From the NCBI RefSeq assembly GCF_963921235.1, contig NC_086097.1, forward strand, positions 6,076,001 through 6,140,000: a stretch of 64,000 nt of DNA, in the 5' to 3' direction. Under the pieces are notes generated by a model, which was given only the letters and a program-made list of their open reading frames with translations, ran no database searches and was not told the DNA's origin. The stretch comes from Mobula hypostoma (lineage: Eukaryota). How positions within the stretch are numbered: the stretch's first letter is position 1; every line of letters begins with the position of its first letter. Below, in pieces: positions 1,334-62,375 of this stretch. A program made the position numbers and the translations under genes.

Positions 1334-1369
1334 AGTCGACGTTTCAGGCCGAGACCCTTCGTCAGGACT
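1334..1369 (-). ncRNA. Minimal type I hammerhead ribozyme motif, intact core
   Basis: Minus strand reads AGUC-CUGACGA-AGGGUCUCGGCCU-GAAA-CG-UC-GACU: stem I AGUC/GACU, CUGANGA box, stem II, GAAA, palindromic ACGU stem III, GUC triplet. Confidence 0.85.
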
Positions 1370-1432
1370 AACTGAAGGAAGAGTGAGTAAGGGATTTGAA
1401 AGTGGGAGCACTTACTCACTCTTCCTTCAGTT

Positions 1433-1468
1433 AGTCCCGACGAAGGGTCTCGGCCTGAAACGTCGACT
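1433..1468 (+). ncRNA. Minimal hammerhead motif with a core substitution
   Basis: agtc-ccgacga-agggtctcggcct-gaaa-cgtc-gact (CCGACGA instead of CUGACGA). Confidence 0.7.
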
Positions 1469-1849
1469 GCACCTCTTCCTAGAGATGCTGCCTGGCCTGC
1501 TGCGTTCACCAGCAACTTTGATGTGTGTTGCTTGAATTTCCAGCATCTGCGGAATTCCTGTTGTTTACAGACTCAAGGCTGTAATTTCTGCCGATAGTGC
1601 ATCTATTAAATACTGACTAGAAGGGGGTGAATACTTATTCAAGCACTTATTTTGTGCTTTATATTTGTAATTAATTTAGGTCACTTTGTAAAGATCTGTT
1701 TTCACTTTGGCACTAAAGAGTCATTTTCTGTTGTCAAAGCACCAAATTAAATCCACTGTGAATTATTGTTATAAAACAATGAAACATGAAAACTTCTAAG
1801 AGGGTGAATATTTTTTATATACATATATATTAAATAAATATTTCATAAA

Positions 1850-2090
1850 AAGAACAAAATAAGAAAAAAATAGTGAGGGAACATGGGTTCATTGTCCATT
1901 CAGAAATCTGATGGCAGAGGGGAAGAGGCTGTTCCTGAAATGTTGAGTGTTTGTCTTCAGACTCCTTGACGGTAGAAATGGCACAAGGACATGTCCTGAG
2001 TGATGGGGTCCTTAATGAAGGATGAAGCCTTTATGTGGCATCGTCTTTTGATGATGTCCTTGATGCAGCAACCACTTGTAATTTTTAGGC
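1850..2090 (-). repeat. Rex1/Babar-related 3'-end fragment
   Basis: Same family as 59320-59950 and the reverse complement of 57705-58155 (cagaaatctgatggcagaggggaag..ctgttcctga). Confidence 0.6.
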
Positions 2091-2274
2091 ATTCAGTAAC
2101 ATTTTCAGACAACAGTTATTGTAGTTCAACAGGACATAGAACAAAGAGGAGAAAGTTGTGTGACATTTAGGTGAGAAATTCCAGAATTCCAGAATGTAGA
2201 CACAGCTATCAATAGAAGAGAAATAGAAGCCAAACATGCACAAGAGGCCAGAATTGCAGATAGTTACTAATGGG

Positions 2275-2640
2275 TCATCCTCATCATTATGTGCTGTGTC
2301 ATATGATGTGGGTGATCAGGGTCTTTCCATGATCATGATTGTTCTTGTTAAATTTTTCTACAGATGTGGTTTGCTATTGCCTTTGTAAGGTCTGCGTCTT
2401 TACAAGATGGGTGACGCCAAACATTATCAAAACCTTCAAAGATTGTCCACTTGGCAGCAGTGGTCACATAACCAGGACTTGTGATGTGCACCGGCTGCTC
2501 ACACGACCATCCACCACCTGCTCCCATGGCTTCTCATGACCCCGATGTTACACTTTGCTCAAGGGTGACCTACAAGCTAGCAGAAGAAAGGAGCACCTTA
2601 CACCTCCTTTGATAGAAACTTACCTCCACCCTGTCACTCA
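2275..2640 (-). repeat. Probable RTE-related SINE or non-autonomous element
   Basis: Minus strand has GGCAATAGCAAACCAC (resembles an RTE/BovB-type motif) and ends in a short (TGA)n tail. No ORF. Confidence 0.4.
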
Positions 2641-2649
2641 TAGCAATGG

Positions 2650-3220
2650 GTAGGTGAAACAAATGTTCAGCTTTCTGTCATTGGTTACCTGAGAAAGATG
2701 TTACAACTTAATAAAACATTGGCTAGTTTGCATTCAGAGTATCTTATCTGCAGTTCTGGTCTCCAAAACGTGGGAAATGTTACTGAGTTGCAGGTAGTAC
2801 GGAGGATTTTTACCAAAACGTGGCTTTGATTGGAGCATTTTACTTATAAAGAAAACTTAAAGAATGGTTGTTTTCTTTAGAATGGTGATCTGATGAAGTT
2901 GTAGAAAACTCTGAGCAGAACAGAAAAGATAGATGGTAAAAACTTATTTTTTTCCACTATGATGGGGGCTTCCAACACAAAACAGCAGGTCGAAGTTAAT
3001 GCACACAAAATACTGAGGAACTCAGCAGGTCAAGCAGCATCTATGGAAATGAACAGGTGGTCGATGTTTCAGGCTGAGACTCTTCTTCAAGACTTCGAAG
3101 TTTAGTGTTGGGAACTTCTGAGAGAATCTGAAGGAGTTATTTTTCACACTGGGAATGGCTGAACTCTGGAAAGCACTGCTGGAAAAGGCGGTAGAAGCAG
3201 ATATTCTCACAATATTTAAC
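2650..3220 (+). repeat. Old CR1 3' fragment interrupted by a degenerate Penelope-like pLTR piece (~2972-3095)
   Basis: Degenerate CR1 C-terminal coding sequence; the pLTR piece has a decayed hammerhead at ~3059-3094. Confidence 0.6.
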
Positions 3221-3412: not shown

Positions 3413-4128
3413 ACCACAAATTTGAGAAAATCTGCAGATGCTGGAAATCTAAACAAGACACACAAAATGCTGGAGGAACTCAGCAGGCAAGGACACTTCT
3501 ATGGAAAAGAGTACAGTCGACGTTTCAGGCCGAGATCCTTCATCAGGACTGGAAAAAAAGATGAGAGGTCAGAGTAAGAAGATGAGGGAGGGAAGGAAGA
3601 AATACAAGTGATAGGTGAGACTGGGAGGGCTGAAGTAAAGAGCTGTGAAGTTGATAGGTGAAAAAGATAAAGGGCTGGAGAAGGCGGAATCTACTAAGAG
3701 AGGACAGAAGACCATGGAAGAAAGGGAAGGGGGTGGAGCACCAGAGGGAGGTGATGGGTAGGCAGGGAAATAAGGTGAGAGAGGGTAAAGGGGATGGGAA
3801 ATGGTGAAGGAGCGGGAGGATGCCATTGCAGGAAGTTTGAGAAATCAGTGCTTATGCCATCAGGTTGGAGGCTACCCAGATGGAATATAAGGGGTTTCTC
3901 CTCCAACCTGAGTGTGGACTCATCTACTGCAGTAGAGGAAGCCATGGACTGAAATGTCAGAAAGGGAATTTGAAGTGGAATTAAAGTGGGTGGCCAACTA
4001 TGAGATTCCCCTTTCTCTGGTGGACAGAATGTAGGTACTCGGAGAAGTTGTCTCCCAACCTATGTCAGGTCTCACCAATATACTGGAGGCCACATTGGGA
4101 GCACCAGATACAGCAGATAGCGCCAACA
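3413..4128 (-). mobile_element. 5'-truncated Penelope-like (Neptune-type) element: GIY-YIG C-terminus plus pLTR
   Basis: Peptide LRLEEKPLIFHLGSLQPDGISTDFSNF; colinear with 47609-48278; hammerhead at 3515-3550. Confidence 0.85.
3515..3550 (-). ncRNA. Minimal type I hammerhead ribozyme motif, intact core
   Basis: Minus strand: (C)AGUC-CUGAUGA-AGGAUCUCGGCCU-GAAA-CGUC-GACU(G). Confidence 0.85.
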
Positions 4129-7117: not shown

Positions 7118-7252
7118 CAAACTACAGGAATTCTGCAGATGCTGGAAATTCAAGCAACACACATCAAAGTTGCTGGTGAACGCAGCAGGCCAGGCAGCAT
7201 CTCTAGGAAGAAGTACAGTCAACGTTTCAGGCCGAGACCCTTCGTCAGGACT
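7118..7252 (-). mobile_element. ~135-bp Penelope-like mini-insertion (hammerhead plus 3' tail only)
   Basis: Direct repeat ACTCAGAAGGAGG at 7105-7117 and 7250-7262; insert matches the pLTR end. Confidence 0.85.
7217..7252 (-). ncRNA. Minimal hammerhead motif with GUU triplet
   Basis: Minus strand: AGUC-CUGACGA-AGGGUCUCGGCCU-GAAA-CGUU-GACU. Confidence 0.8.
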
Positions 7253-7884
7253 CAGAAGGAGGTGTGAGTGTGGAATCAGCTGCCAGTGGAAGTGGAGGAT
7301 GCAGGGTCGATTTCAACATTTTAGATAAATTTTGGTAAGTACATGGATGGGAGGGGCATGGAGGTCTATAAAAGTGCAGCAGGGACCAGAGGGCCTGTAA
7401 CACTCTATATGATTCTAATTGATAAATGTTTGAGGTAAATTATTGATTGTTGCTACTGAGTTTAATACAGAAGCCTTGTCGATTAGTTACATTATTACAA
7501 ATAGCTCCAATTAGCAGCTCTTCTGGCTTCCGTCAGAAGCTTTTGGCGTCAAGTCCTTCCTCGTGATTTAAGCACATAAACATGACAGTTGACTTAGTGT
7601 TGCCTTGAGGAATGTTTGGTGGCACCTTTTTAATGGGATGCTAAACTGTGTTAATAATCTTCGAATTGCTGAGATGAACGGAAATGGCCAGGAGCTCCCA
7701 TTAGGTTGTGCTGCTTTCCCGGTGCCAATCCTTGGAAATCAGTCAAGGCAACGCAAGAGGATTGGAGGATATCAAAAATAAATTGTGTCAATCGCAGCTT
7801 TGAGTTACTCATTTTTTGGCATGGTTTTAGAAAACTGTACCAGAATCAGCCATTACTCCTGACAAATTAGCTCAGAAAGTTGTT

Positions 7885-8236
7885 TCCATAAGATATAGGA
7901 GCAGAATTAGGCAATTTGGTCCATTGTGTCTACTCGGCCATTTCAACATGGCTGATCCATTCTTCCTTTCAACCCCAGTCTCCTGTCTTTTCCCCGTAGC
8001 CCCTCATGCCCTGACCAATCAAGAATCTATCAACCTCTGCCTTAAACATACATAGAGACATGATCTCCACAGCTGCCTGTGGCAACAAATTCCACAGATT
8101 CACCCTTCTCTGGCTCAAGAAATTCCCCCTCATCTCCATTCTAAAAGGATGATCCTCTATTCTAAGGCTGTGTCCTCTGCTCTTAGACTCTCCCACAATA
8201 GGACACATCCTCTCGACATCCACTCTATCAAGGCCT
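7885..8236 (-). repeat. CR1 LINE 3' end
   Basis: SRGHSLRIEDHPFRMEMRGNFLSQRRVNLWNLLP. Confidence 0.85.
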
Positions 8237-10028: not shown

Positions 10029-12792
10029 GGTTCCGGGGTCGAGTATGGAGTGAGTCGGTGCGTGTGAGTGTGGCTCCCGATTTTTATTGAAAATCCACCT
10101 GTTTATCTTTGCCGTATGCTCGAGATAACTGGATACTTACCATTGTGAACAACGCGGGACATAGCTGGACATTGAAATGGCAAGTAGAATGTACCTTCGA
10201 AGTAAAGCTGGGGAAAAAGATAGCGAAGCCTCGAGCAAGAAGGCGGATGTTACAGTAATGGCGCCGTTGCACGCTGCTGGAGCTGGGCCCGGACCTGCCC
10301 TACCCGATGACTTGGGGAGGCTTCATTTAGTGCTTATTACTGACATGACGCAAGCGGTGCATTCTGCCCTAAAAAGAGAACTTGAAGATGCTTTATCACC
10401 AGTGACTGCTACCATGGAACAAATTACGTCTGCTTACGAGTCACAGGGCGAACGCATTCGTGAGGTTGAAGACGGCCTGAGTGATTACAGTGACCGGCTG
10501 GTGAGCGCCGAAGCCGCCATTGCAGCGTTGCAGAGCGAAAACGCAGTTCTGAAGGGAAAGCTAGATGACCTCGAAAATCGGTCGCGGAGATCCAATTTGA
10601 GAGTGGTCGGCATTCCTGAAAATTTGGAAGGTACGGACCCTGTTAAATTTATGACCGAGTTTTTTGACGAAGTGCTGGGGACAGATTTTTTCCCAAGTCC
10701 TCTCGTACTTTCGCCTGCTCACCGAGTCGGACATAAACCATCCGGTGTCTCTGGAGCCAAGCAAACGAGACCAAGAACGTTCCTGGTTTGCTTTCACTCC
10801 TTTCAAGATAAGCAACGCATCATCAACAGACGGAAGCAGGAGCTGTATTTCCGCGGACACCGCGTGTTTTTTTATGAAGATTTTAGTGCGGAGCTGGGTA
10901 AAAAACGAGCAGCTTTCAAGGAGGTGAAATCCCTGCTTTACGGGAAGGGGGTCAGGTTCGGCCTCTTGTATCCTGCCCAGCTCTGGGTCATGCATGAAGG
11001 TAAAAAGCATTATTTCCATACACCAGAGGCGGCCAAAGAGTTTTACCATTCGCGCTGGGGAGAAGAAGAACGAGAAGAGCAATGACTTTTTTTTTAGGTT
11101 ATTCCTGCAGCATTGAAGGGACCTCATGCCGAAGCAAACTGTTAATTTTCACAATCCACTTCTTTGTTCATTTTTTCCAGTTTAATTTGTGGAACGCGAT
11201 CGGGTCGAACTGCTATGCTGCCGAAACTGATTAACAAAAACTTTCAACCAGCAAAATGTAAATATTTGGGATTTATATCTCGGGTGTTTAAGTTGCCCAG
11301 TGTGTTTTTTTTTTGTTTTTAATGCTTAGCTTGACCTGTGTTATCTTTAGCCTATATGTTATATTAAAGGTAGTATAAGTGATAGGATAAATTTTAAGGA
11401 GGGGAGCCACCCTAGATTAGATTGAAAATTGGGTTGTATGGGGAACGCCTTGGAAGTTTTTTGTTGGGTACTGCCTGCGATCATCCTCAATTGGGGAGGT
11501 AGATCTAGGCTTCGGGGGTTAATTGGGTTTTTTTGTTTGTGTAAAGGGGTGAGGGGAGTGTTTTGGGGGATTACCATGGCAGTTTATTCTTTTGTGTGTT
11601 ACGGATTGATCAGACTTTCTTTTCATTGTGCGTTATTGTGTGCAACTTATACCCTCGCACTGTTTTGGATTGTAGGCCCTGTGTGTCTTTTGATATGGTT
11701 AACATGAGTGCAGCTGATGGAGGCCACCCTGTGAGGTTTATTTCTTGGAATGTAAAGGGGCTCAATGGTCCGGTTAAAAGAGCTAAAGTTTTCTCTCATC
11801 TGAAACAATTAAAAGCAGATATACTATTTCTACAAGAGACACATTTAAGAGTGGAGGACCATAATAGACTTCGTAAAGCATGGATTAGTCAGGATTTTCA
11901 TTCCAGATTTAATAGTAGGTCCAGGGGGGTGGCAATATTAATCACCAAAAGAATGCAGTTCACACCATCTGATGTAATCAGTGACCCTAATGGTCGCTTT
12001 ATTATAGTCTCTGGCTCTCTCTTTCAGATACCTGTTATTTTGGTAAATGTTTATGCTCCTAATTGGGATGATGTCCAATTTGCAAATAGGGTTTTGTCAT
12101 TAATACCTAACCTGAATACACATAAGCTAATCTTTTCCGGAGATTTGAACTGTGCTATTGACCCACTGCTTGATAGGTCTTGCCCTAGGGGAACATTTTC
12201 TGGTATGGCAAAGGCCTTCTCGATGTTTATGCAACAAAATGGTTATATGGATCCTTGGAGATTTTTGAATCCATCAGTTAGGCAATTCTCTTTCTTCTCT
12301 CATGTTCACCACTCCTATTCCAGGCTAGACTATTTCTTTATAGATAATTCCTTGATACCTATGATTAGACAAATTGAATACACTGCTATAGTTATATCTG
12401 ATCACTCGCCCGTGAAACTGGACCTATGTTTTCCTTTAAACGTTAGAGAACGGCCTCTGTGGAGACTTAACCCCCTTTTGCTTTCTAATGAGAAATTTTG
12501 TAGTTATATATCGGCTAACATTGACACATTCTTCGAGACTAACAAAACTGAGTCGGTATCGTACTCTTTACTTTGGGAAACTTTAAAAGCTTACTTGAGG
12601 GGTCAAATAATATCTTATACTTCACATGCCAATAAAGAGCATAGGAAGGAAATGCAAGTGTTATTGCAATCTATTTGGGACCTGGATAGAAAATACTCTG
12701 AGGCACCCACTGCGGAATTATATAAAAGCCGGGTTGATTTGCAAGCGAAGTTTAATCTTCTATCTACAAACCTATCAGAACAATTAATTCTT
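10029..12792 (+). mobile_element. L1-clade LINE, 5' intact and 3' truncated
   Basis: CpG-rich 5'UTR, ORF1, T-rich inter-ORF spacer, APE domain. Flanked by AAGTTATGATATTGT at 10014-10028 and 12793-12807. Confidence 0.92.
10177..11085 (+). CDS. L1 ORF1p (coiled coil, RRM, CTD), 302 aa, open
   Basis: KLDDLENRSRRSNLRVVGIPE, AHRVG, RPR, FYEDFSAE..KKRAAF, LLYPAQL. Confidence 0.9.
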   Translation: MASRMYLRSKAGEKDSEASSKKADVTVMAPLHAAGAGPGPALPDDLGRLHLVLITDMTQAVHSALKRELEDALSPVTATMEQITSAYESQGERIREVEDGLSDYSDRLVSAEAAIAALQSENAVLKGKLDDLENRSRRSNLRVVGIPENLEGTDPVKFMTEFFDEVLGTDFFPSPLVLSPAHRVGHKPSGVSGAKQTRPRTFLVCFHSFQDKQRIINRRKQELYFRGHRVFFYEDFSAELGKKRAAFKEVKSLLYGKGVRFGLLYPAQLWVMHEGKKHYFHTPEAAKEFYHSRWGEEEREEQ

Positions 12793-12801
12793 AAGTTATG
12801 A
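11695..12801 (+). CDS. L1 ORF2 truncated after the APE endonuclease and linker; no RT
   Basis: ISWNVKGLN, LQETHL, NVYAPN, GDLN, SRLDY, SDH, WRLN, WETLKAYLRG. First in-frame ATG is at 11695; the stop TGA lies inside the right duplication. Confidence 0.88.
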   Translation: MVNMSAADGGHPVRFISWNVKGLNGPVKRAKVFSHLKQLKADILFLQETHLRVEDHNRLRKAWISQDFHSRFNSRSRGVAILITKRMQFTPSDVISDPNGRFIIVSGSLFQIPVILVNVYAPNWDDVQFANRVLSLIPNLNTHKLIFSGDLNCAIDPLLDRSCPRGTFSGMAKAFSMFMQQNGYMDPWRFLNPSVRQFSFFSHVHHSYSRLDYFFIDNSLIPMIRQIEYTAIVISDHSPVKLDLCFPLNVRERPLWRLNPLLLSNEKFCSYISANIDTFFETNKTESVSYSLLWETLKAYLRGQIISYTSHANKEHRKEMQVLLQSIWDLDRKYSEAPTAELYKSRVDLQAKFNLLSTNLSEQLILKL

Positions 12802-14609
12802 TATTGTTGCATTGTTGTAACTATATGTTATAATTATGTGGTTTTGTTAGTTTTTCAGTCTTGGTCTGCCCTGTGTTTCTGTGATATCACACTGGAGGAA
12901 TCTTGTATCATTTCTTAATGTCTGCATTACTAAATGACAATAAAAGAGGACTGTGTGTCCTCATAAGCTAATCTATTCTATTTTGAAGAAATAACAAGCA
13001 GGATAGACAAAGGAGAATTGGTTGATGTTGTGCACTTGGATTTTCAGAAGGCCTTTAACAAGGTGTCATACATGAGGCTGCTTATCAAGCTATGAGCCCA
13101 CGGTATTACAAGAAAAATACTATCATGGATAAAGCAGTGGTTGATTGACAGGAGGCAAAGAGTGGGAATAAAGGGAACCTTTTCTAGTAGGCTGCTGGTG
13201 ACTACTGATTTGTGTTGTGATAGATTCTTTTTATGTTTTATGTCAATGTTTTGGATGATGCTTTGTTGCAGATTTTGTAGACAATATGCAGATAGGTAGA
13301 TTTGAGGAAGTCAAGAGGCTACAGAAGGACATAGAGTAATTATGAGAATGGGCAAAGAAATGGCAGATGGAATACAGTGTCAGGAAGTGTATGATCATGC
13401 ACTTTGACAGAAGAAATGAAAAGTTGACTATTTTCTTAATGGAGAAAAATTACAAAACAAAACTGAGACACAAAATGATCCAGGAGTCTTTGTGCAGGAT
13501 TTTCTGAAAGTTAATTTGCAGGTTGAGTCTGTGCTAAAGAAGGCAAATACAATGTTAGCATTAATTTCAAGAGGACTAGAATATAAGAGCAAGGATGTAA
13601 TGTTTAGACTTTATAAAACACTGGTGAGGCTTCACTCGGAGTATTGGGAGCGGTTTTGGGCCCCTTATCTTAGAAAGGATGTGCTGAAACTGGACAGAGT
13701 TGAAATGAGGATGATGAAAATGATTCCAGAATTGAATGGCTTGTCATATGAAATGTGTCTGATGGCTCTGGGGCTGTATTCTCCAGAAGTCAGAAAAATA
13801 AGTGTTGACCTCATTGAAGCCTATAGAATGGTGAAAGGCCTTAACAGAGTGGATGTGGAGGGACGTTTCCTATAGTGGGGGAGTCGAAGACTAGAGGACA
13901 CAATCTCCAATAGATGGGGCTTCCTTTTGGAATGGAGATGAGGAGGAATTTCTTGAGGTAGAGTGTGTTGAATCTGTGGAATTCTTTGCCACAGGCAGCT
14001 GTGGAGGATACATTTGGTTGCACAGTTAGATGACAATAAACTGGAACTTGAAAGGCTCCAAATAAATCTGAATGTTGACAGCTAAGCATCTGATACTGGT
14101 ATTATTTTATTATTGCCACATGTACCAAGATGCAGTGGAAAATTTAGTTTTACCAGCCATGCATACATTTCAAAACACAGCAACCTGGGGTAGAACAGGA
14201 GAAAAACAATAACAGAATGTGTAACGAAGTGTTACTGATGTTAACAGGGAAAATGTGGTACAGGAGGAAAATAAGATGCAGGGGCCAAGACAAAGCAGAC
14301 TGTGATATCAACAGTTTATCTGTTACATACATGAATTCCTTTGAATAGTTTTATAACAGGAGCAAGGTAGCTACCCTTCAGCTTGGTTGTGTATGTTGTC
14401 GATTATTTGTAACTTCAAACTAATGGAAGGGAGCAGAACAACAAATATCAGTGGTGGGAAATGTCTTTGACTATCCCAAATGCTTTTCCAAAGAGGTTCA
14501 AAGTACATTTATTATCAAAGTATTTATACTTTACACAACCTTGAGATTTGTCTCATTACAGGAAACCACAAAACACAGAAACCCAATAGAACACACTAAA
14601 ACAAAATAT

Positions 14610-15585: not shown

Positions 15586-16345
15586 CATAAGAACATAAGA
15601 ATTAGGAGCAGGAGTAGGCCTTCTGGCCCATCAAGCCTGCTCCACCATTCAATAAGATCAAGGCTGATCTGGCCATGGACTCATCTCCACCTAGCTGCCT
15701 TTTCCCCATAACCTTTAATTCCTCTACTATGCAAAATCTATCCAGCCTTGTCTTAATTACATTTACTGTTGTAGCCTCCACTGCTTCATTGGGCAAAGAA
15801 TTCCACAGACTCTCCACTCTCTGGGAAAAGCAATTCCCCCTCTTCTCCGTCCTAAATCTACTCTCACGAATCTTGAGGCTATGTCCGTTAGTTGTAGTCT
15901 CATCTTCCATTGGAAATAACTTTCCAGCCTCTATCTTACCTATCCCTTTCACAACTTTATTTGTTTTGATAAGATATCCCCTTATCTTTCTGAATTTCAG
16001 TGAGTACAGTCCCAGGCGACTCAATCTCTCCTCGTAGGTTAACCCCTTCATCTCTGGAATCAACCTGGTGAACCTCCTCTGCACTACATCCAAAGCCAGT
16101 ATATCAGTCCTCAAGTAACGAGACCGGAACTGCTTGCAGTACTCCATGTGCGGCCTCACCAGTATCCTGTATATTTGCAGCATAACCTCCCTACTCTTAA
16201 ATTCAATCCCTCTAGCAATGAAGGCCAACATTCCATCTGCCATCTTGATAACCTGCTGCACCTGCAAACCAACATTTTGTGATTCATGCACAAGAACGCC
16301 CAAGTTCCCCTGCACAACAGCATGCTGCAATTTTTTACTATTTAA
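15586..16345 (-). repeat. Relatively young CR1 3' end
   Basis: 242-aa open frame (LVRPHMEYC..QRRFTRLIP..YEERLSRLGL); (tcttatgt) tail. Confidence 0.9.
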
Positions 16346-31000: not shown

Positions 31001-31526
31001 TAAAACACAAGAAAGTCTGCGGATGTTGGAAATCCAGGTCAACACACGGTGGCATAACAGTTAGTGTGATGCTATTAGAATCTGGGTGCTGGATTCAGGA
31101 GTTTATTTCCACCGCTGTCAGTAAGAAAGTTTGTGCGTTCTTCTCGTGTGTATACAGGGTTTCCTCTGGATGCTCTGGTTTCCTCCCACAGTCCAAAGTT
31201 GTACTGGCTAGTAGGTTAACTGGTCATTGTAGATTTTCCAGTGATTACTCTAGGGTTAAGTAAGTGGGTTGCTGGGCGGTGTGGTTTGTTGGACTGGAAG
31301 GGCCTCTTCCGTGTTGTTTCTTTAAATGAAATAAAATAACTCAAAATGCTGGAGGAACTCAACGGGTCAGGCAGCATCTATGGAAATGAATGAACAGTCG
31401 ATGTTTTGGGCCAAGAGTCTCAATCAGGACTCCCCAGATGAAGAGTCTCAGCCTGAAATGTCAATTGTTTATTCATTTCCATAGATGCTGTCTGACCTGC
31501 TGAGTTCCTCTGGCATTTTGTGTGTC
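31001..31526. mobile_element. Older fold-back Penelope-like pLTR pair, interrupted by a V-SINE (~31048-31340)
   Basis: Diverged inverted arms ~31342-31430 and ~31433-31520 with decayed hammerheads; tail piece at 31001-31047; V-domain at ~31157-31198. Confidence 0.75.
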
Positions 31527-42182: not shown

Positions 42183-42894
42183 TTTTTTTAAAATCTTAAG
42201 GGATAGGAACAGAGTTAAGTCTTAAGCTTCCTGCAGGCTGCCTCAGTGCTCTGTCAGATCATCAATAATTTCTCTTCTACATTTTTCCTATTCTCTGGAT
42301 CCCTTTACATCCAGAGTATTTGCTGTGGATATTTACAGTATCTATTTGATAAATACTTGACGTGCCAACTTCTTGGCATTTCTTTTTTCCTCTGCATGTC
42401 ATAAACTTTGAGAAATAAGTTGCTGAAACATTGAGTCACTTTGAGCTTTACCTTTGAAGGACTATTGAAACGAGTTGTGCAGGGGAAAGACAAGACCCAA
42501 AGCTTCTATCTCTGATCAGCCTGGTTCCTCTCTGAAATATTTTAATTGTTGAAAATCCCTTCAGGACATAAAATAGCCTACCTTAATGTAAGTTATTTCT
42601 TCATGAAGCGTATCTGTTGGAATGATTGGCAAAATGTTTGCCTCAAGGTAAAGCATCTCCTAATACTCACGCAGTTAAACAACTCCTATTGGAGCACAGC
42701 ATTCGATATAAATCTTTAATATACAGGATTTATCTTTAATTCCCCACAGCTCCTGATACTTTGCAGTAAAAATTGTACATTATCTATTTCTTTTTTTGTA
42801 CACAAAAGGACTTTCTTTGCACATAACTTCATATACTTGCGAAGCTATTTTTATGTATTTCACTCATTTTTGCAAGGTAATATGAGCAAGTTTC

Positions 42895-43350
42895 CTTCAA
42901 CCTCATGGCATGAGCATTGATTTCTCCAACTTCTGTTTTTTTCTCCCTCTCTCCATTTCCTCTTCTTCAATTCCCCACTCTGGGCCCCCTCTTACCTCTT
43001 CTCTACTTTTCACCTGCCTGTCACCTCCTCTGGGGTCCCTCTTTCCTCCCTATCTTCTTTAGTCCTCTCTCCTCTCCTGTCGGATTCCTTCCTCTCCAAA
43101 CCTTTAACTTTTCCACCTATCACCTCCCTGCTTCTTACTTCACCCCCTCCCCCACTCACCAGGTTTCACCTATCAACTTTGAGCTTGTTATCCTTCCACT
43201 CACGGCACCCTCTTATTCTGGCTTCTTTCACCCCTCACCCCCACCTTGCTTTCCAGTCCCGATGAAAGGTCTCAGCCTGAAACACTGACTATTTATTTAT
43301 TTCCACAGATGCTACCCGACCCGTTGAGCTCCCCCAGCATTTTATGTGTG
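42895..43350 (+). mobile_element. Penelope-like pLTR with a degenerate hammerhead (43255-43290)
   Basis: Starts at the GIY-YIG end (GMSIDFSNF), pyrimidine-rich body, agtcccgatgaaaggtctcagcctgaaacactgact. Confidence 0.75.
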
Positions 43351-47370: not shown

Positions 47371-47608
47371 GGAAGTAAAAGAGAAGGTCAAATCCTGAAG
47401 TTACTCTCCAGTTCAGAGCGATTCCTGAAAAAAGTTTTTGATGGAGCTCACAAGGTAAAGGAAAGCTTCACACTTACATTTATATGGATGTTACAAACCA
47501 ATGAGTGAGTGTTGAAATGCTTTCAGATGTGAAGCATATAACACAGCCAAACGAAACATCATTACTCTGGGGCCAAAGTGCAAAACACAGTATCAAAAGT
47601 CACACACA

Positions 47609-48278
47609 TCAAAGTTGCTGGTGAACGCAGCAGGACAGGCAGCATCTCTAGGAAGAGGTACAGTCAACGTTTCGGGCTGAGACCCTTCGTCAGGACTAAC
47701 TGAAGGAAGAGTTAGTAAGAGATTTGAAAGTGGGAGGGGTAGGGGGAGATCCAAAATGATAGGAGAAGACAGGAGGGGGAGGGATGGAGCCAAGAGCTGG
47801 ACAGGTGACTGGCAAAAGGGATATGAGAGGATCATGGCACAGGAGGCCCAGAGAGAAGGAAAAGGGGGAGGGGGGAAAAACCCAGAGGATGGGCAAGGGG
47901 TATAGTCAGAGGGACAAAGGGAGAAAAAGGAGAGAGAGAAAAAGAATGTGTGTGTATATAAATAAATAACGGATGGGGTACGAGGGGGAGGTGGGGCTTT
48001 AGCAGAAGCTTGAGAAGTCAATGTTCATGCCATCAGGTTGGAGGCTACCCAGATGGAGTATAAGGTGTTGTTCCTCCAACCTGAGTGTGGCTTCATCTTT
48101 ATGGTAGAGGTGGTCGTGGATAGACATATCAGAATGGGAATGGGACATGGAATTAAAATGTGTGGCCACTGGGAGATCCTGCTTTCTCTGGTGGACAGAG
48201 CATAGGTGTTCAGCGTAACGATCTCCCAGTCTGTGTTGGGTCTCTCCAATATACAGAAGGCCACATCGGGAGCACCAG
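47609..48278 (-). mobile_element. 5'-truncated Penelope-like (Neptune-type) element
   Basis: IWCSRCGLLYIGETQHRLGDRYAEH..PVATHFN..LRLEEQHLILHLGSLQPDGMN (GIY-YIG). 17-bp duplication ATCAAAAGTCACACACA at 47592-47608 and 48279-48295. Confidence 0.92.
47662..47697 (-). ncRNA. Minimal hammerhead motif
   Basis: Minus strand: AGUC-CUGACGA-AGGGUCUCAGCCC-GAAA-CGUU-GACU. Confidence 0.8.
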
Positions 48279-48589
48279 ATCAAAAGTCACACACAGTACA
48301 AAGCTCACATAGCACATACAAGATAACAAGCACATGAATGACAGCAGTTCAGTACAGTCTCCCAAAAAAATTATAGTCCAAGACCCCGAGTCCATGAATG
48401 TTGCAGCAGTCTGCAGTCGACACAATACAGGTTGCTTTTTGCTGAGATCATTTTTGTTTTGTCAGCCTCTCAAGTGGATCCATAGCTGCTGTGCACACAC
48501 ATCACAGACAAAACTAGGCCCTCACTCACTGCCCCTGTAGTGCTAGAAACTACAAATTAAAAATTTTTACTCAAACAGACCAAAGAGTC

Positions 48590-48867
48590 TTGATTTTCCA
48601 GCATCTGCAGATTTCCTCGTGTTCGTGTTTTTAATTTCACTACTGCGAAGCCTGTTCTGGTGATGCCTACACTGAAGAAGTTTAAATCTTCTCTTCGACA
48701 GGAGTTCAGTGAAACCATCTCTTACTGCTCCCCATCTGTAATTTCTTCGACTCTTCAACTTTTCGAAGCCCTGACGAAGGGTCTCGGCCTGAAACGTTGA
48801 CTGTACCTCTCCCTAGAGATGCTGCCTGGCCTGCTGCGTTCACCAGCAACTTTTATGTGTGTTGCTT
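48590..48867 (+). mobile_element. 278-bp permuted Penelope-like mini-element with a hammerhead motif (48767-48802)
   Basis: Duplication AGACCAAAGAGTC / AGATCAAAGAGTC at 48577-48589 and 48868-48880. The insert starts with the sequence that follows its own end in other copies. Confidence 0.85.
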
Positions 48868-50536: not shown

Positions 50537-51506
50537 AATGTCAGATTGCTGGCAGGTGGTAAGAGTGGTCTCCCTCACCTCCACCCCTCAATACAGGAGC
50601 CCTCAGGACTGTCCCCTCCTTTACTCCCTGTATACCCATGACTGTATCACCACCCACAGCTCTAATCTGCTAATTAAATTTGCCGACAACACTACATTGA
50701 TTGGCCTAATCTCAAACAATAACGAGGTTCCCTACAGGGAAGAAGACATCTCTCTGACACAATGGTGTCAAGAAAACCTCTCCCTCAGTGTTGCAGAAAC
50801 AAAGGAGCTGGAGGAATGGAGACGAGCTAACCCCTATTGACATCAATGGATCTGGGGTTCAGAGTGTAAACAGCTTTAAGTTCCTCGGCATCCACATCAC
50901 TGAGGACCTCACATGGATTGTACACACCAGCTGTGTGGTGAAAAAAGCGCAACAGCACCTCTTGCACCTCAGCCAGTTGAGGAAGTTTGGTATGGGCCCC
51001 CAAATCCTAAGAACTTTCTACAGGGGCACAATTGAGAGCATCCTGACTGGCTGCATCACTGCCTGGTATGGGAACTGTACTTCCCTCAATCGCAGGACTC
51101 TGCAGAGAGTAGTGCAAACAGTCCAGCACATCTGTAGTTGTGAACTTCTCATGATTCAGGACATTTACAAAGACAGGTGAGTAAAAAGGGCCCGTGGGAT
51201 CACCAGGGATCTGGGTCACCCTAATCACAATCTATTCCAGCTGCTGCCATCTGGAAAACGGTACCACAGCATAAAAGCCAGGACCAACAGGCTCCGGGAC
51301 AGCTTCTTCCACCAGGCCATCAGACTGATTAACTCAGAATGATTTGAGTATATTTCTATGTTACATTGACTGTTCTATTATTAAAAATTATTATAAATTA
51401 CTATGATTGCACATTGTACATTTTGACAGAGACATAACGTAAAGATTTTTACTCCTCATGTATGTGAAGGATGTAAGAAATAAAGTCAATCCATATTCAA
51501 TTCAAT
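50537..51506 (+). repeat. Rex1/Babar 5'-truncated copy
   Basis: LLYSLYTHDC..IKFADNTT, FKFLGIHI, ESILTGCITAWYGNC; (TTCAA)n tail. Confidence 0.88.
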
Positions 51507-52124: not shown

Positions 52125-52526
52125 TCCACCTTCCGGTAATTCCCCCCCCCCTCCTTTATTCCTATGTCACTCTACCCCCTCCCCCAGCTGCCTATCACCT
52201 CCCTCATGGTTCCACCTCCTTCTACTACCCATTGTGTTTTCCCCTATTACTTCTTCATCTTTCCTGCCTATCACCTCCCTGCCTCCCCTCCCCCACCCCT
52301 TTGTCTTTCCCCTTACTGGTTTTTCACCTGGAACCTACCAGCCTTCTCCTTCCCACCCTCCCCCCACCTTCTTTATAGGGCCTCTGCCCCTTCCCTCTAC
52401 AGTCCTGACGAAGGGTTCTGGCCCGAAACGTCGACTGATCATTTCCACGGATGCTGCCTGACCTGCTGAGTTCCTCCAGCGTGTTGTGAGTGTTGCTTTG
52501 ACCCCAGCATCTGCAGATTATTTTGT
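52125..52526 (+). mobile_element. Solo Penelope-like pLTR insertion
   Basis: 12-bp duplication GTCTATAATTTC at 52113-52124 and 52527-52538. Confidence 0.88.
52401..52436 (+). ncRNA. Minimal type I hammerhead ribozyme motif, intact core
   Basis: (C)AGUC-CUGACGA-AGGGUUCUGGCCC-GAAA-CGUC-GACU(G). Confidence 0.85.
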
Positions 52527-59160: not shown

Positions 59161-59403
59161 CTGAAACAGAATGAATTATCTCGGCTGAAGACTGGCCTCT
59201 GCAATGACAGAGCACCAGGGAGCAGTGACAGATTGTCAACATTCTTGGCTAGAAGTATTTGCATATGATTCAGACTTTGCTTTGGACTGAAAAACAGCAG
59301 CAAAATAGTGGGAATGCTGGAATTCAGAGAAGAATCAGAATCATGTTTAATATCACTGGCAGATGTTGTGAAATCTGTTGTTTTGCGACAGCAGTGCATT
59401 GCA

Positions 59404-59599
59404 GTTGTTGTTCCTCTCCATGGCTTGTGACGCATCGGGCAGCAACTTTGCTGTTCCTTTTGCATTTGTCCCTTTTTTAATGAGGCGAGTTGCTAGCTTG
59501 ACTCTCAACCCGGCATGCGTGCAAGGAGCTGTCTGGATTCGAACCCAGGACCACTCACCTCAAAGTCCAGTGCGGATGCCTCCACATCACCGGCCGGCC
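59404..59599 (-). repeat. tRNA-derived SINE inserted in a Rex1-type element (59320-59950)
   Basis: Minus strand GGCCGGCCGGTG...GGTTCGAATCC (B box); (CAA)n tail; imperfect 11-bp duplication at 59393-59403 and 59600-59610. Confidence 0.75.
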
Positions 59600-60049
59600 A
59601 TTACATTGCAATACAAAATAATAAAAACTGTGAATTACAGTAAATATGTATATTACATAGTTAAATTAAATAAGTAGCGCATAAAAAGTTGTGAGGTGGT
59701 GTTCATAGGTTCATTGTCCATTCAGAAATCTGATGGCAGTGGGGATTAAGCTGTTCCTGAATCGTTGAGTGTGTGTCTTAAGACTCCTGTACGTCCTCCC
59801 TGATGGTAGCAATGAGAACAAGGCGTGTTCTGGGTGATGGGGGTCTTTAATGATGGACAACACCTCCCTGAGGCATTGCCTCTTGAGGACGTCCTGGATG
59901 CTATGGAGGATAGTGCCATGATGGAGCTGACTGAGTTTACAAATTTTTGGAATTTAAAAAACAGAACATTCTGAGAATAAGGGCCATTATCTTGGGCGAT
60001 AAATGTCAATGACTCTCACATCCTATAAATAAATAATAGAACATATGAA

Positions 60050-60365
60050 GATAGATTTTTACTTCCTCTAAGACTTCTCCTCTTTCCCTCTCTCCCATGG
60101 CCCATTCTTCTCTCTTATTAGATTCCTTCTTCTCCAGCTCTTCACCTTTTCCGCCTTTCACTGCCCAGCTTCCTATGTCACCCCCTCCCACCAGCTGTAC
60201 CTATTACTACCTAGCTTGTCCTACTTCCTCTCCTCCCACCTTCTCATTCTGGCATTCTCCCCCTTCCTTTCCAGTCCTAATGAAATGGCTCAGCCCGAAA
60301 CACTGACTGTCTATTCATTTGCCTGACCTGCTGAGCTCCTCCAGCATTTTGTGTGTGCTGCTCTG
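60050..60365 (+). mobile_element. Old Penelope-like pLTR with a decayed hammerhead (60273-60308)
   Basis: agtcctaatgaaatggctcagcccgaaacactgact; homologous to 42895-43350. Confidence 0.7.
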
Positions 60366-60944
60366 GTTCTCACTCACCAGAGGTTTGATCGGATCTTTGG
60401 CTACAAGCATTCTTACTTTTACAGGTGTGGTTTTGGTAGTTGCAATTTTCCATCTAAGGAGGTGCTGTGTTTGAAATAGAAAAGGGCAGCAATATTAAGT
60501 GGTCAGTCTAGAAGTTCCAGCAACATGGGCTTGATTCTGACCTTGCATGCATTCGTACGGAGTTTAGAATTCACATTGTAAATGCATGTGTTTCCACTGA
60601 AAGCCTTTATTTTTTTCCTACATTCCAAGGATGTAGTAGTTAAAATGCCCTGGGAGCTAGCATGGGCTTGATAGGCTCAATGGCCTCCCTTTTGTCTTAA
60701 GAAAATATTAACTAGAAAATTCTTCTGCCACTTTTGAATAAAAATCTCATCAAGTGTAATACTAAGAGCTGCTAGTCATGTTGGTAGATGGAGATACATT
60801 CGGGGCACATGGACAATTGAAAATTGACGACTATGTAGCAGAGAAGGGTTAGATTAATCATAGACTCGGTTAAAAGGTTGGCACAGAACCATGGGCTGAA
60901 GGGCCTGTACTGTGCAATAATGTTTTATGTTTTGTGTTCTGTCC

Positions 60945-61195
60945 TGCTATGGCAGTGTTATTCCAGCTCGGGGCATCGGAGTTCAATACTGACGTCACCT
61001 GGAAAGAGTCTGTATGTCCCCTCCGTGAAACGTGATTTTCTCCTGCACTCCAAAGCCTTGCTGGTTAGTAGATTAATTGGTCATTGTATATGGTCCCGTG
61101 ATAGGGCTGGAGCTAATCAGGGGATTGTGGGGCAGCATGTCTCGAAGAGCCAGAAGGGCCCATACAACGTTGTATCTCAATAGATAAATAAATAT
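60945..61195 (+). repeat. V-SINE, internally deleted
   Basis: Head and tail match 45855-46130; (taaa)n tail. Confidence 0.65.
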
Positions 61196-61691
61196 TCTAT
61201 ACTCTCAGAGATGTTGTGTTTCAGGTGAAATGTCAAATCAATTTAAATATAGAACATAGAACAGTACAGCATAGGAACAGACACTCCAGACCAAACAAGT
61301 TCGTAATCAATTTCTATGCAACATCCATAACTTTCCAATTTTCCTCACATTCATGAGGCTATCTAAACATATAGAACATCGATTTGTTGGGGAACTTATG
61401 GTGGATAGACTGTCTGCTTCTTTGCTCACCACAACACCAAAAATAAGTACTTCTTTGACAGTGAATCTCACTGGATTGTCTTGAGCTTGTGAATGATGGG
61501 AAAGGCACAGACTGGATGGGCCAAAGGGCCTGTTTCTTTGCTGTGATGTAACCAATGAAAAGATACTGCACCAGAACTGGCTCACTCGCTCTGACACCTG
61601 AAATATTAGCTGATTCCACAGATGTTGCTTAACTGAATGATTTCTTTCAGTATTTCTGCTTTTATTTTGGAATAGAGAAGGCCTTAGATGT

Positions 61692-62375
61692 AAATACGAG
61701 GAATTCTGCAGATGCTGGAAATTCAAGCAACACACATCAAAGTTGCTGGAGAACGCAGCAGGCCAGGCAGCATCTCTAGGAAGAGGTACAGTCAACGTTT
61801 CGGGCCAAGACCCTTCGTCAGGACTAACTGAAGGAAGAGCTAGTGAGAGATTTGAAAGTGGGAGGGGGAGATCCAAAATGATAGGAGAAGACAGGAGGGG
61901 GAGGGATGGAGCCAAGAGCTGGACGGCTGATTGGCAAAGGGGATATGAGAGGATCATGGGACAGGAGGCCCAGGGAGAAGGAAAGGGGGGGGACCTAGAG
62001 GATGGGCAAGGGGTATAGTGAGAGGGACAGAGGGAGAAAAAGGAGGGAGAGAGAGAAAGAATGTGTGTATATAAATAAATAATGGATGGGGTACGAGGGG
62101 GAGGTGGGGCATTAGCGGAAGGTAGAGAAGTCAATGTTCATGCCATCAGGTTGGAGGCTACCCAGACGGAATATAAGGTGTTGTTCCTCCAACCTGAGTG
62201 TGGCTTCATCTTTACAGTAGAGGAGGCCGTGGATAGACATATCAGAATAGGAATGGGATGTGGAATTAAAATGTGTGGCCCCTGGGAGATCCTGCTTTCT
62301 CTGGCAGACAGAGTGTAGGTGTTCAGCAAAACGATCTCCCAGTCTGCGAACATTGACTTCTCTAACTTCCGCTAA
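61692..62375 (-). mobile_element. 5'-truncated Penelope-like element with a short inverted cap
   Basis: RRLGDRFAEH..ATHFNS..LRLEEQHLIFRLGSLQPDGMNIDFS; hammerhead at 61790-61825; 62348-62375 is the reverse complement of 62112-62139. Confidence 0.9.
61790..61825 (-). ncRNA. Minimal hammerhead motif
   Basis: Minus strand: AGUC-CUGACGA-AGGGUCUUGGCCC-GAAA-CGUU-GACU. Confidence 0.8.

What the first reader, a model, noticed from the sequence alone, without database searches (positions are those of the whole stretch)
1334..61825. At least ten minimal hammerhead ribozyme motifs carried by Penelope-like pseudo-LTRs
Seen: a 36-nt motif AGTC-CTGAYGA-A-GG(N)CCY-GAAA-CGTY-GACT at 1334, 3515, 7217, 47662, 61790 (minus) and 1433, 48767, 52401 (plus), with decayed versions at ~3059, ~31397, ~31432, 43255 and 60273. 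Where the GIY-YIG ORF is present, the motif is on the same strand and downstream of it. The stem II loop varies (TCTCG, TTCTG, TCTTG, TCTCA) while the boxes are kept across pLTR subfamilies. Known: Penelope-like elements carry minimal type I hammerheads with a palindromic stem III, proposed to work as dimers. The GGG/CCC copies need an extra A after A9, as in the CChMVd viroid hammerhead. The class is known; the density and copy architectures here are notable.
Basis: partly seen in the sequence, partly recalled or inferred. Interest (0 to 1): 0.75.

Follow-up and report, generated by a model that had tools for sequence, protein, structure and literature searches.

The report
Hammerhead ribozyme motifs in Penelope-like retrotransposon tails
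The window holds thirteen copies of a small, already described kind of self-cutting RNA motif that sits near the tail end of dead Penelope-like jumping genes in a ray-type fish genome, which carries tens of thousands of such copies.

Summary
Thirteen copies of the 38-nt motif lie at the stated places: 8 near-intact and 5 decayed, of which 6 pass a strict descriptor. Chance expects 0.17 core matches; 7 are seen.

The motif has all hallmarks of the published minimal type I hammerhead of Penelope-like elements (PLEs). These are the CUGAYGA and GAAA boxes, no helix III, an ACGU palindrome, an extra A before stem II, and a GUC cut site.

It lies about 300 nt after a GIY-YIG reading frame and about 62 nt before the element's 3' end. 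Longer genomic copies run on into a reverse transcriptase.

All window copies are 5'-truncated 3' fragments. None sits in a repeat-ORF-repeat unit, and two pairs are head-to-head fold-backs that cannot act as ribozyme dimers.

The genome holds 101,806 core matches and 60,995 fully intact motifs.

There is no compensatory covariation and no pile-up of copy starts at the predicted cut site. Self-cleavage in vivo therefore stays unshown.

This is a known class with a new, very large family.

The parts
1333..1370 (-). Hammerhead motif, near-intact (1 mismatch). It is the left arm of a fold-back whose element piece spans 1258-1408.
1432..1469 (+). Hammerhead motif with a core change (CCGA for CUGA). 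It is the right arm of the fold-back, with element piece 1411-1528. The arms are 125 nt long, 96% complementary and 19 nt apart.
   Evidence: (I11)
3058..3095 (-). Decayed hammerhead motif (8 mismatches), element piece about 3018-3094.
3514..3551 (-). Hammerhead motif of a second subfamily (CUGAUGA, GGA in stem II). It passes the descriptor only in the register without the bulged A.
3832..4121 (-). Frameshifted remnant of the GIY-YIG endonuclease frame. It lies upstream of the 3514 motif on the same strand, and its end is about 280 nt before the motif.
7216..7253 (-). Hammerhead motif, near-intact, in a short 5'-truncated piece at 7157-7269.
31395..31432 (-). Decayed motif (10 mismatches), left arm of a second fold-back (31347-31431).
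31430..31467 (+). Decayed motif truncated within the CUGAUGA box, right arm of that fold-back (31434-31507).
42894..42935 (+). Remnant of the C-terminal end of the GIY-YIG frame, about 320 nt before the 43254 motif.
43254..43291 (+). Decayed motif of an older subfamily (8 mismatches; the ACGU palindrome is lost through CpG decay).
47602..48280 (-). The longest PLE fragment of the window: end of the GIY-YIG frame, 3' untranslated part, hammerhead and tail. It is 5'-truncated inside the endonuclease domain.
47661..47698 (-). Hammerhead motif, near-intact, with U at the cleavage position 17.
48002..48286 (-). Open 95-codon end of the GIY-YIG endonuclease frame. The Pfam GIY-YIG match has E 0.005 and 17.5 bits, below the 22.6 cut-off. 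It is 87% identical to a ray protein that carries RT-like and GIY-YIG parts.
48766..48803 (+). Hammerhead motif with one stem I mismatch. The copy starts at the motif itself (48767-48862) and is inverted relative to the 47661 copy, 1069 nt away.
   Evidence: (I20)
52400..52437 (+). Hammerhead motif of a third subfamily (loop UCUG, G10.1-C11.1). It passes the descriptor.
60272..60309 (+). Decayed motif (10 mismatches), older subfamily.
61730..62346 (-). PLE fragment: end of the GIY-YIG frame (62115-62348), 3' untranslated part, hammerhead and tail.
61789..61826 (-). Hammerhead motif, near-intact. It passes the descriptor.

Best explanation
The 13 motifs are copies of the minimal type I hammerhead ribozyme of a canonical Penelope-like retrotransposon, one with a reverse transcriptase followed by a C-terminal GIY-YIG endonuclease.

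Shown in the sequence:
- Stem I is 5 bp (AGUC/GACU plus one closing pair).
- The CUGAYGA box is followed by one extra A.
- Stem II is 4 bp, G-rich, with a 4-nt loop.
- GAAA is followed directly by CGUC, so there is no helix III.
- The four letters ACGU are self-complementary.

Inferred from published work on this class: two motifs pair through ACGU to build a shared helix III, and each core then cuts after C17, giving GUC|GACUG. This happens slowly and probably with protein help.

Shown about the carrier: the motif sits about 300 nt behind the endonuclease stop codon and about 62 nt before the 3' end of the element. Every window copy is a dead, 5'-truncated 3' fragment, and two pairs are head-to-head fold-backs.

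Inferred about retrotransposition: the RNAs that were copied into these insertions had not been cut at the ribozyme. All copies carry both sides of the cut site, and copy starts do not pile up there. Cleavage, if it occurs, would serve to trim read-through or tandem transcripts of the few active source elements. It is not needed to make the template for insertion.
For: Motif and hallmarks:
- 13 copies against a chance expectation of 0.17 for the core.
- A strict descriptor gives 17 hits in 264,000 bases and 0 in the same sequences reversed.
- The motif matches all four features that Cervera and de la Pena 2014 give as marks of PLE minimal hammerheads: a nucleotide between 9 and 10.1, G10.1-C11.1 (in the CCC copies), palindromic 15.2/16.2, and no helix III.

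Carrier:
- A GIY-YIG frame lies upstream on the same strand.
- The best relatives are ray proteins with RT-like and GIY-YIG parts.
- 10 of 12 long copies examined continue upstream into the endonuclease linker.
- One 10-kb locus holds an RVT_1-like frame upstream of GIY-YIG, hammerhead and tail; E 2.7e-6, 27.7 bits, just under the 29.6 cut-off.
- 5' truncation points are spread out. Adjacent inverted copies, 6 pairs among 51 copies, are the published PLE pattern (PMC8557442, passages).

Conservation: between five subfamily representatives the motif is 81% identical (shuffled 59%) and the 62-nt tail 73% (shuffled 55%). The 120 nt upstream are at the shuffled level, 60-61% against 59-60%.

Uncut templates:
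- 60,995 genomic copies are continuous across the cut site.
- Simple copy starts are about as common 3 nt before, at, and 1 nt after the cut site: about 140, 210 and 210 after correction, with rows sorted by eye.
- This agrees with Frangieh et al. 2024, who found no RNA-seq ends at the cut site, found cleavage dispensable for insertion in vitro, and found the ribozyme protein-assisted (PMC11167929, passages).
Against: - No cleavage was or could be tested here.
- Rfam 15 gives no hammerhead match at the gathering score, at E up to 10 on the whole window, or on an 81-nt stretch around the 52400 copy.
- There is no compensatory change in either stem. Among 51 copies there were 0 two-sided changes. 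Among 22 distinct rows, 0 pairs changed on both sides, and 464 of 500 shuffles were paired as well as the real data.
- Genome-wide, the double change at pair 3-36 occurs 23 times against 11.9 expected (odds ratio 1.9). An unpaired control double occurs 61 times against 39.8 (odds ratio 1.5).
- Most copies carry U at 11.1: 33 of 51 and 78 of the first 100 intact copies listed. This replaces the conserved G10.1-C11.1 pair by G.U, or shifts the register.
- Nearest-neighbour folding favours an inactive hairpin that pairs GACG of the first box with CGUC. It puts the double-hammerhead fold 6.5 to 15 kcal/mol above two separate monomers.
- The Pfam matches to GIY-YIG and RVT_1 are below the curated cut-offs.
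- No tandem (pseudo-LTR) unit was seen in the window or in the 200 kb sampled.
Confidence: 0.85

Rival explanations
1. The motif is kept for a job other than catalysis. Together with the conserved 62-nt tail, it would be a structured recognition or dimer-linkage element for the element's protein or for the start of reverse transcription. Its resemblance to an active hammerhead would then be historical.
For: - The motif and the tail are the only non-coding parts conserved between subfamilies.
- Inserted copies derive from uncut RNA.
- Most copies have U at 11.1, which weakens a pair that active hammerheads conserve.
- Published work finds low in vitro activity and finds cleavage dispensable for insertion.
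- Craig et al. 2021 note that PLE clades without hammerheads proliferate well.
Against: - All core nucleotides needed for catalysis are kept across subfamilies, beyond what a mere binding hairpin would need.
- PLE hammerheads from fungi and from Anolis do cut in vitro.
Confidence: 0.2
2. The ribozyme works as a single, protein-assisted motif rather than as an RNA dimer. The element's own protein would hold the three-way junction in place of helix III.
For: - The Anolis Poseidon hammerhead cuts only when its protein is added, and endonuclease mutants do not affect this (PMC11167929, passages).
- The window has no close pairs of intact motifs in direct orientation. The nearest such pairs are 456 nt apart (one partner decayed) and 3.6-3.7 kb apart.
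- The double-hammerhead fold is disfavoured in nearest-neighbour energy.
Against: - The ACGU palindrome is kept in 43 of 51 copies at pair 30-31 and in 48 of 51 at pair 29-32. A monomer has no use for it.
- Dimeric and trimeric constructs of a Schistosoma motif cut where the monomer did not.
Confidence: 0.25
3. The short copies belong to a separate non-autonomous family, retrozyme-like or SINE-like, that merely shares the ribozyme with PLEs.
For: - About half of the family-A copies sampled are only 90-135 nt long and start within 40 nt upstream of the motif.
- Simple starts at motif position 1 are about 9 times more frequent than at the cut site.
- A 2026 preprint links animal retrozymes to PLE repeats (abstract and one section read).
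Against: - Short and long copies share the same sequence, and start points grade continuously into the endonuclease and RT frames.
- There is no tandem array with a hammerhead in the window; only one unrelated 33-nt repeat was found.
- No common 5' end sequence is seen among the short copies (listing).
Confidence: 0.07
4. The motif is a chance look-alike inside a repeat and has nothing to do with hammerhead ribozymes.
For: No Rfam hammerhead model matches, and there is no covariation.
Against: - Both conserved boxes, the cut-site triplet, two stems and the four published hallmarks all coincide, on the right strand, in the element class known to carry them.
- The reversed pattern gives 0 matches against 101,806.
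Confidence: 0.02

Closest known systems
Minimal hammerhead ribozymes (min-HHR) of metazoan Penelope-like elements (Cervera and de la Pena 2014, PMC4209133; main text parts 1-2 read)
   Same: - Type I topology with a short stem I and no helix III.
- Palindromic 15.2/16.2.
- An unpaired nucleotide between A9 and 10.1.
- G10.1-C11.1 in part of the copies.
- Location in the terminal repeat region of a PLE.
- Mostly dispersed single motifs from truncated elements, with pairs on opposite strands 100-700 bp apart.
   Different: - Stem II is short here (4 bp), whereas the Schistosoma families have 7-8 bp.
- Most copies carry U at 11.1.
- One sequence family dominates, without the covarying families reported for other genomes.
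- The copy number (101,806 core matches, 60,995 intact) is more than ten times the largest figures in that paper: about 9,000 in Xenopus tropicalis and about 4,000 in coelacanth.
- No cartilaginous fish is named in the parts of the paper I read.
Poseidon element of Anolis carolinensis (PAc) and its hammerhead (Frangieh et al. 2024, PMC11167929; passages read)
   Same: - A vertebrate PLE with RT and GIY-YIG, and a hammerhead with stems I and II only.
- Insertion ends defined by an internal start of reverse transcription (the 'tail').
- No sign that cut RNA is the insertion template.
   Different: In PAc the reading frame starts inside the hammerhead. Here the motif lies about 300 nt after the stop codon of the endonuclease frame. 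Where the next unit's frame would begin was not seen.
PLE insertion units with adjacent inverted 5'-truncated copies (Craig et al. 2021, PMC8557442; passages read)
   Same: - Heavy 5' truncation.
- Head-to-head inverted copies: 2 pairs in the window and 6 pairs among 51 sampled copies.
- A variable 3' 'tail'.
   Different: Here both arms are often cut down to little more than hammerhead plus tail, giving hairpin-like insertions of 250-300 bp. No partial tandem (pseudo-LTR) was seen in the DNA examined.
Extra nucleotide after A9 in some canonical hammerheads (De la Pena and Flores 2001, as cited in PMC4209133; the 2001 paper itself was not seen, and its link to the chrysanthemum viroid is recalled)
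   Same: One unpaired nucleotide between A9 and the first pair of stem II.
   Different: That case is a viroid type III ribozyme with full helices. Here the extra nucleotide is a family trait of the PLE motifs, so it adds nothing new.
Rfam hammerhead families (type I, II, III, HH9, HH10; the family list is recalled)
   Same: The same catalytic core boxes.
   Different: None of the Rfam models matches, even at E up to 10. The lack of helix III is the likely reason.

Membership tests
Hammerhead ribozyme, type I | Conserved core: C3 U4 G5 A6 N7 G8 A9 and G12 A13 A14, with A15.1-U16.1 and a non-G at position 17. | tested here: met
   6 of 13 window copies and 17 sites in 264 kb meet a strict descriptor; 0 sites meet it in the reversed sequences. 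7 window copies match the core pattern exactly.
Hammerhead ribozyme, type I | Stems I and II flank the core, with the open end at stem I. | tested here: met
   91.7% of cells are paired in the named structure, against 10.9-39.1% when partners are slid by 1-3 columns.
Hammerhead ribozyme, type I | Site-specific self-cleavage after position 17. | not testable with these tools
   No RNA holder was listed and only contigs could be laid. The genomic record of copy starts shows no excess at the cut site.
Hammerhead ribozyme, type I | Compensatory covariation in the stems. | tested here: not met
   There were 0 two-sided changes in 51 copies and in 22 distinct rows. Genome-wide, the paired double change has odds ratio 1.9 against 1.5 for an unpaired control. 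The copies are one young family of dead insertions, so the test has little power.
Rfam hammerhead models | Score at or above the family's gathering score. | tested here: not met
   There is no hammerhead hit at the gathering score or at E up to 10.
PLE minimal hammerhead (Cervera and de la Pena 2014) | No helix III or loop 3; positions 15.2/16.2 are palindromic. | tested here: met
   GAAA is followed directly by CGUC. ACGU is kept at 48 of 51 copies (pair 29-32) and 43 of 51 (pair 30-31).
PLE minimal hammerhead (Cervera and de la Pena 2014) | [quoted passage not shown] | tested here: met
   A at column 13 in 51 of 51 copies. It is needed as a bulge in the CCC copies. The CCU copies can also pair it with U25.
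PLE minimal hammerhead (Cervera and de la Pena 2014) | A G10.1-C11.1 pair. | tested here: inconclusive
   G-C in 15 of 51 copies, G.U in 32 of 51. 22 of the first 100 intact genomic copies listed have C.
PLE minimal hammerhead (Cervera and de la Pena 2014) | Carried in the terminal repeat region of a Penelope-like element. | tested here: met
   It lies on the same strand, about 300 nt after the GIY-YIG frame and about 62 nt before the element's end.
Canonical endonuclease-bearing Penelope-like element | A single frame with a reverse transcriptase followed by a C-terminal GIY-YIG endonuclease. | tested here: met
   - Window frame: GIY-YIG E 0.005.
- Relatives P0005 and P0008: GIY-YIG E 5e-4 and 8e-4, with RT-like parts upstream.
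- Locus L020: RVT_1 E 2.7e-6 upstream of the endonuclease part, with frameshifts.
- All Pfam scores are just under the curated cut-offs.
Canonical endonuclease-bearing Penelope-like element | Partial tandem giving a pseudo-LTR on both sides of the frame. | tested here: not met
   There is no repeat-ORF-repeat unit in the window or in the 20 sampled loci. The sample is small and holds no full-length copy.
Canonical endonuclease-bearing Penelope-like element | Frequent 5' truncation and adjacent inverted 5'-truncated copies. | tested here: met
   Truncation points are spread from the endonuclease frame to the motif. There are 6 inverted pairs among 51 copies and 5 such pairs among the first 100 core matches listed.
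Non-LTR retrozyme | Head-to-tail tandem arrays of short units, each with a type I hammerhead. | tested here: not met
   Tandem Repeats Finder gives one unrelated 33-nt array. The closest direct pair of motifs is 456 nt apart and the two are unrelated insertions.

The most novel reading that the evidence does not exclude
In this family the hammerhead region may matter at the DNA-copying step rather than, or as well as, through RNA cutting.

Copy starts are about 9 times denser at the 5' edge of the motif than at the cut site. Many fold-back junctions lie in its self-complementary parts: stem I, the GTCGAC and ACTAGT palindromes, and stem II.

Every long copy has what looks like a branch site, a pyrimidine tract and a YAG 3' splice site abutting stem I.

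The motif edge could therefore mark one of three things: a stop or strand-switch point of the reverse transcriptase, the end of an intron as in Drosophila virilis Penelope, or the start of repeat-driven transcripts. With over 60,000 intact copies, this genome would also be a natural archive showing that PLE insertion templates are not ribozyme-cut in vivo.
Probability: 0.15. Interest if true: 0.55.

Novelty: new member of a known kind. Interest (0 to 1): 0.27.

Why it matters
The class has been described since 2014, so the window adds no new kind of RNA.

It does add two things. First, it adds a very large, young and uniform family in a cartilaginous-fish genome. My two searches of the held paper library for such a report found none. 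A 2026 preprint did sample one chondrichthyan for retrozymes.

Second, that size allows a genome-scale look at a question reviews call open: whether these minimal ribozymes cut in vivo, and what for (PMC7761336, passages). Here the copies show no trace of cut templates. That agrees with the one biochemical study of a vertebrate PLE.

For annotation, these short hairpin-like insertions should be masked as PLE tails. They draw weak false microRNA matches.

Tried and rejected
RNA evidence:
- The look-up of sequencing runs listed no RNA holder.
- The four runs laid were contigs, probably DNA, and say nothing on expression or RNA ends. They only show the same family at high depth in two other coded organisms, with GUC and the UCUCGG loop in the majority.

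Fossil test for cleavage:
- I suspected, from an aberrant subset of 12,557 matches, that copy starts pile up at the cut site. My pattern there excluded intact copies by mistake.
- Patterns that force four non-family letters upstream gave 170, 240 and 92 matches at -3, 0 and +1.
- After I set aside inverted junctions, deletions and other classes by eye, simple starts came to about 20 of the first 100, 13-14 of the first 100, and 33 of 92.
- That is a flat profile, so the idea was rejected.
- About 60 of the first 100 matches at position 0 are inverted copies that run through stem I into a sense tail. Perfect palindromes centred on GTCGAC are common but cannot be assigned to cleavage, because the site is itself a palindrome.

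Covariation by genome-wide counts was negative. The unpaired control change, C at column 37, turned out to mark a subfamily with the UUCC loop, so founder effects confound such counts.

Protein searches:
- Pfam on 51 window frames and on 18 read-through translations gave no GIY-YIG at E up to 0.01 and 0.1. The RVT_1 hits there belong to LINE-like frames.
- The PDB sequence search with the RT-like frame gave nothing.

Limits met:
- Lunse, Weinberg and Breaker 2017 is not held. Its counts may bear on my copy-number comparison.
- The supplements of Cervera 2014, with species tables and alignments, were not opened.

Full report
**Observation.** Eight have 1-4 mismatches: 1333, 3514, 7216, 47661 and 61789 on the minus strand, and 1432, 48766 and 52400 on the plus strand. 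Five are decayed, with 8-10 mismatches: 3058, 31395, 31430, 43254 and 60272. The core pattern CTGAYGA-N8-16-GAAAC occurs 7 times against 0.17 expected, and 0 of 100 shuffles reach 7. A covariance model made from 26 copies and run with filters off returns the same 13 and one chance-level match. Six of the 13 pass a strict structural descriptor. That descriptor gives 17 hits in 264,000 bases of window plus sampled genome and none in the reversed sequences. Two details need correcting: the 1432 copy has CCGA for CUGA, and the 48766 copy has a stem I mismatch.

**Anatomy.** On the sense strand the order is as follows:
- stem I, 5' strand (N-AGUC);
- CUGAYGA;
- one A;
- stem II (GGGU, a 4-nt loop, GCCY);
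- GAAA;
- CGUY;
- stem I, 3' strand (GACU-G).

Nothing lies between A15.1-C15.2 and G16.2-U16.1, so a single molecule cannot form helix III. ACGU is self-complementary, so two motifs can. The predicted cut is GUC|GACUG, with U17 in CpG-decayed copies. These are exactly the traits that Cervera and de la Pena 2014 list for the minimal hammerheads of Penelope-like elements (PLEs). The same paper reports mostly dispersed single motifs from truncated elements, and pairs on opposite strands 100-700 bp apart.

**Carrier.** Upstream on the same strand, three copies have the end of a GIY-YIG frame, and a fourth has a remnant:
- 48002-48286, open for 95 codons, Pfam E 0.005, under the cut-off;
- 62115-62348;
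- 3832-4121, frameshifted;
- the remnant at 42894-42935.

The 95-codon piece is 87% identical to a ray protein. Its relatives carry RT-like sequence followed by GIY-YIG. The stop codon lies 280-320 nt before the motif, and the element ends about 62 nt after the cut site.

The window's longest copy is itself truncated inside the endonuclease domain. In the sampled genome, 10 of 12 long copies continue upstream into the endonuclease linker. Several run into RT sequence. One holds an RVT_1-like frame, E 2.7e-6 and just under the cut-off. Truncation points are spread out, so these are 5'-truncated PLE copies and not a separate short element.

No copy in the window sits in a repeat-ORF-repeat unit, and there is no tandem array. 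The word pseudo-LTR is therefore apt for the region but not shown for these copies.

**Architectures.** Two pairs are head-to-head fold-backs. The first is 1258-1408 with 1411-1528, with 125-nt arms that are 96% complementary. The second is 31347-31431 with 31434-31507. Such pairs make up 12 of 51 sampled copies. They are the published PLE pattern of an adjacent inverted 5'-truncated copy. Transcribed in either direction, the first pair folds into one long hairpin of about -250 kcal/mol, which buries the one sense motif. These pairs are therefore not ribozyme dimers. They also draw weak microRNA-family matches.

**Genome scale.** The window lies in a 3.48-Gb assembly. The core pattern occurs 101,806 times there, and the reversed pattern 0 times. 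A 35-nt pattern that also demands stems I and II occurs 60,995 times. The window's 7 core matches compare with 1.9 expected, so its density is 3.7 times the mean. The genome count exceeds the largest figures in the 2014 paper, about 9,000 and about 4,000, by an order of magnitude. I could not see Lunse et al. 2017, which may give larger numbers.

**Covariation.**
- Among 51 copies from 264 kb there is no two-sided compensatory change in either stem. The 20 loci were chosen around exact core matches, so this sample is biased. The only standard-pair variation is one-sided: U.G or C-G at pair 1-38, and G.U or G-C at pair 14-25.
- On 22 distinct rows, 0 pairs change on both sides, and 464 of 500 shuffles pair as well as the real data.
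- Genome-wide counts for pair 3-36 are: unchanged 60,995, A3 alone 1,323, U36 alone 550, both 23. Independence expects 11.9, so the odds ratio is 1.9.
- A control double with an unpaired site gives 61 against 39.8 expected, odds ratio 1.5.

There is thus no compensatory signal beyond the general tendency of older copies to carry more changes. I do not take this as refutation. The copies are one young family of dead insertions that decay neutrally, and selection can act only on source elements.

The better evidence for constraint comes from comparing subfamilies. Between five representatives, the motif is 81% identical and the tail 73%, while the 120 nt upstream and the DNA beyond the 3' end are at the shuffled level.

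**Does it cut in vivo?** All 60,995 intact copies carry both sides of the scissile bond. Their templates were therefore uncut, or cut and rejoined. If cut RNAs were copied, insertions should start at GACUG.

An aberrant subset suggested such a pile-up, so I counted matches whose four upstream letters all differ from the family's. The counts were 170, 240 and 92 at -3, 0 and +1 relative to the cut. I sorted rows by eye. Simple truncations came to about 20 of the first 100, 13-14 of the first 100, and 33 of 92. After correcting for the filters, that is roughly 140, 210 and 210 copies. The profile is flat.

This fits Frangieh et al. 2024 on an Anolis PLE. They found no RNA-seq ends at the cut site, found cleavage dispensable for insertion in vitro, found the ribozyme active only with protein, and found reverse transcription starting internally.

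No RNA data could be brought to bear here.

Nearest-neighbour folding favours an inactive hairpin and disfavours the double hammerhead by 6.5-15 kcal/mol. That is in line with the low in vitro activity reported for this class. Such models ignore tertiary contacts.

**Unexplained.** Simple copy starts at the first nucleotide of the motif are about 9 times more frequent than at the cut site. There are 1,410 matches, about 32 of the first 100 are simple, and the corrected figure is roughly 1,900. In the sample, 18 family-A copies start within the 45 nt that end at the CUGA box.

All 26 long copies have 72-96% pyrimidines in the 25 nt before the motif, ending in YAG at stem I. The main family also has TACTAAC 13 nt before CAG. 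This looks like a 3' splice site abutting helix I, as reported for Drosophila virilis Penelope.

Four causes are possible: a polymerase stop or fold-back, a lariat branch, a transcription start in the repeat, or solo repeats. Which one applies I could not test.

**Verdict.** The motifs are real and correctly named. The class and its peculiar traits are in print. The copies here are dead tail fragments and fold-backs of a PLE family that is unusually abundant in this ray-type genome. Catalysis is inferred from the class and not shown.

Noticed in passing
window 47699-47740, 61827-61870, 3552-3590, 52360-52399, and 22 further long copies in loci L009-L026: Every long copy has a pyrimidine-rich tract (72-96% of 25 nt) ending in YAG at or in stem I. 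The main family also has TACTAAC 13 nt before CAG. Together these look like a branch site plus a 3' splice site abutting the hammerhead, as reported for Drosophila virilis Penelope.
   Followed up: partly
genome-wide; window copies starting at 7269, 48767, 3094, 1408, 1411: Copy 5' ends cluster within about 40 nt upstream of, or at, the first nucleotides of the hammerhead. Simple starts at motif position 1 are about 9 times more frequent than at the predicted cut site.
   Followed up: partly
genome-wide listings: Fold-back junctions often sit in self-complementary parts of the motif. Inverted copies run through stem I straight into a sense tail (about 60 of the first 100 matches). Perfect palindromes are centred on GTCGAC at the cut site and on ACTAGT at stem I.
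   Followed up: partly
window 1357-1446 and 1342-1459: The fold-back gives sub-threshold Rfam matches to microRNA precursor families (35.5 and 34.9 bits, against gathering scores of 80 and 72). This is an artefact of the long perfect hairpin.
   Followed up: yes
window 1333-1370, 47661-47698, 52400-52437 and others: The minimum-energy monomer fold pairs GACG of the CUGACGA box with CGUC at the cut site. This extends stem I into a hairpin that would hide the catalytic core.
   Followed up: partly
genome-wide; window 52400-52437; locus L019 5175-5212: A subfamily with the UUCC or UUCU stem II loop often carries C at column 37, which mismatches A2 in stem I. 1,833 otherwise intact copies have this change.
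   Followed up: no
window 11545-12801(+), 15155-15523(-), 16338-16724(-), 17395-18291(-), 27628-28248(+), 34926-35339(-): These are LINE-like frames with Exo_endo_phos and RVT_1 matches, unrelated to the PLE copies. The window is a mosaic of decayed retrotransposons.
   Followed up: no
window 25369-25755(+) and 50758-51180(+): Frames match Pfam ALKBH8_N (E 5e-8 and 1e-10) inside repeat-like DNA. This is probably a repeat-derived look-alike rather than a host gene.
   Followed up: no
window 46461-46509(-): A further 49-nt remnant of the end of the GIY-YIG frame (88% to the reference copy), with no hammerhead detected downstream.
   Followed up: no
window 7880-8122, 14606-14764, 33369-33611 and others (repeat families D4, D5, D8, D9): Several other interspersed repeat families have 3-6 copies each in the window. 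None was examined.
   Followed up: no
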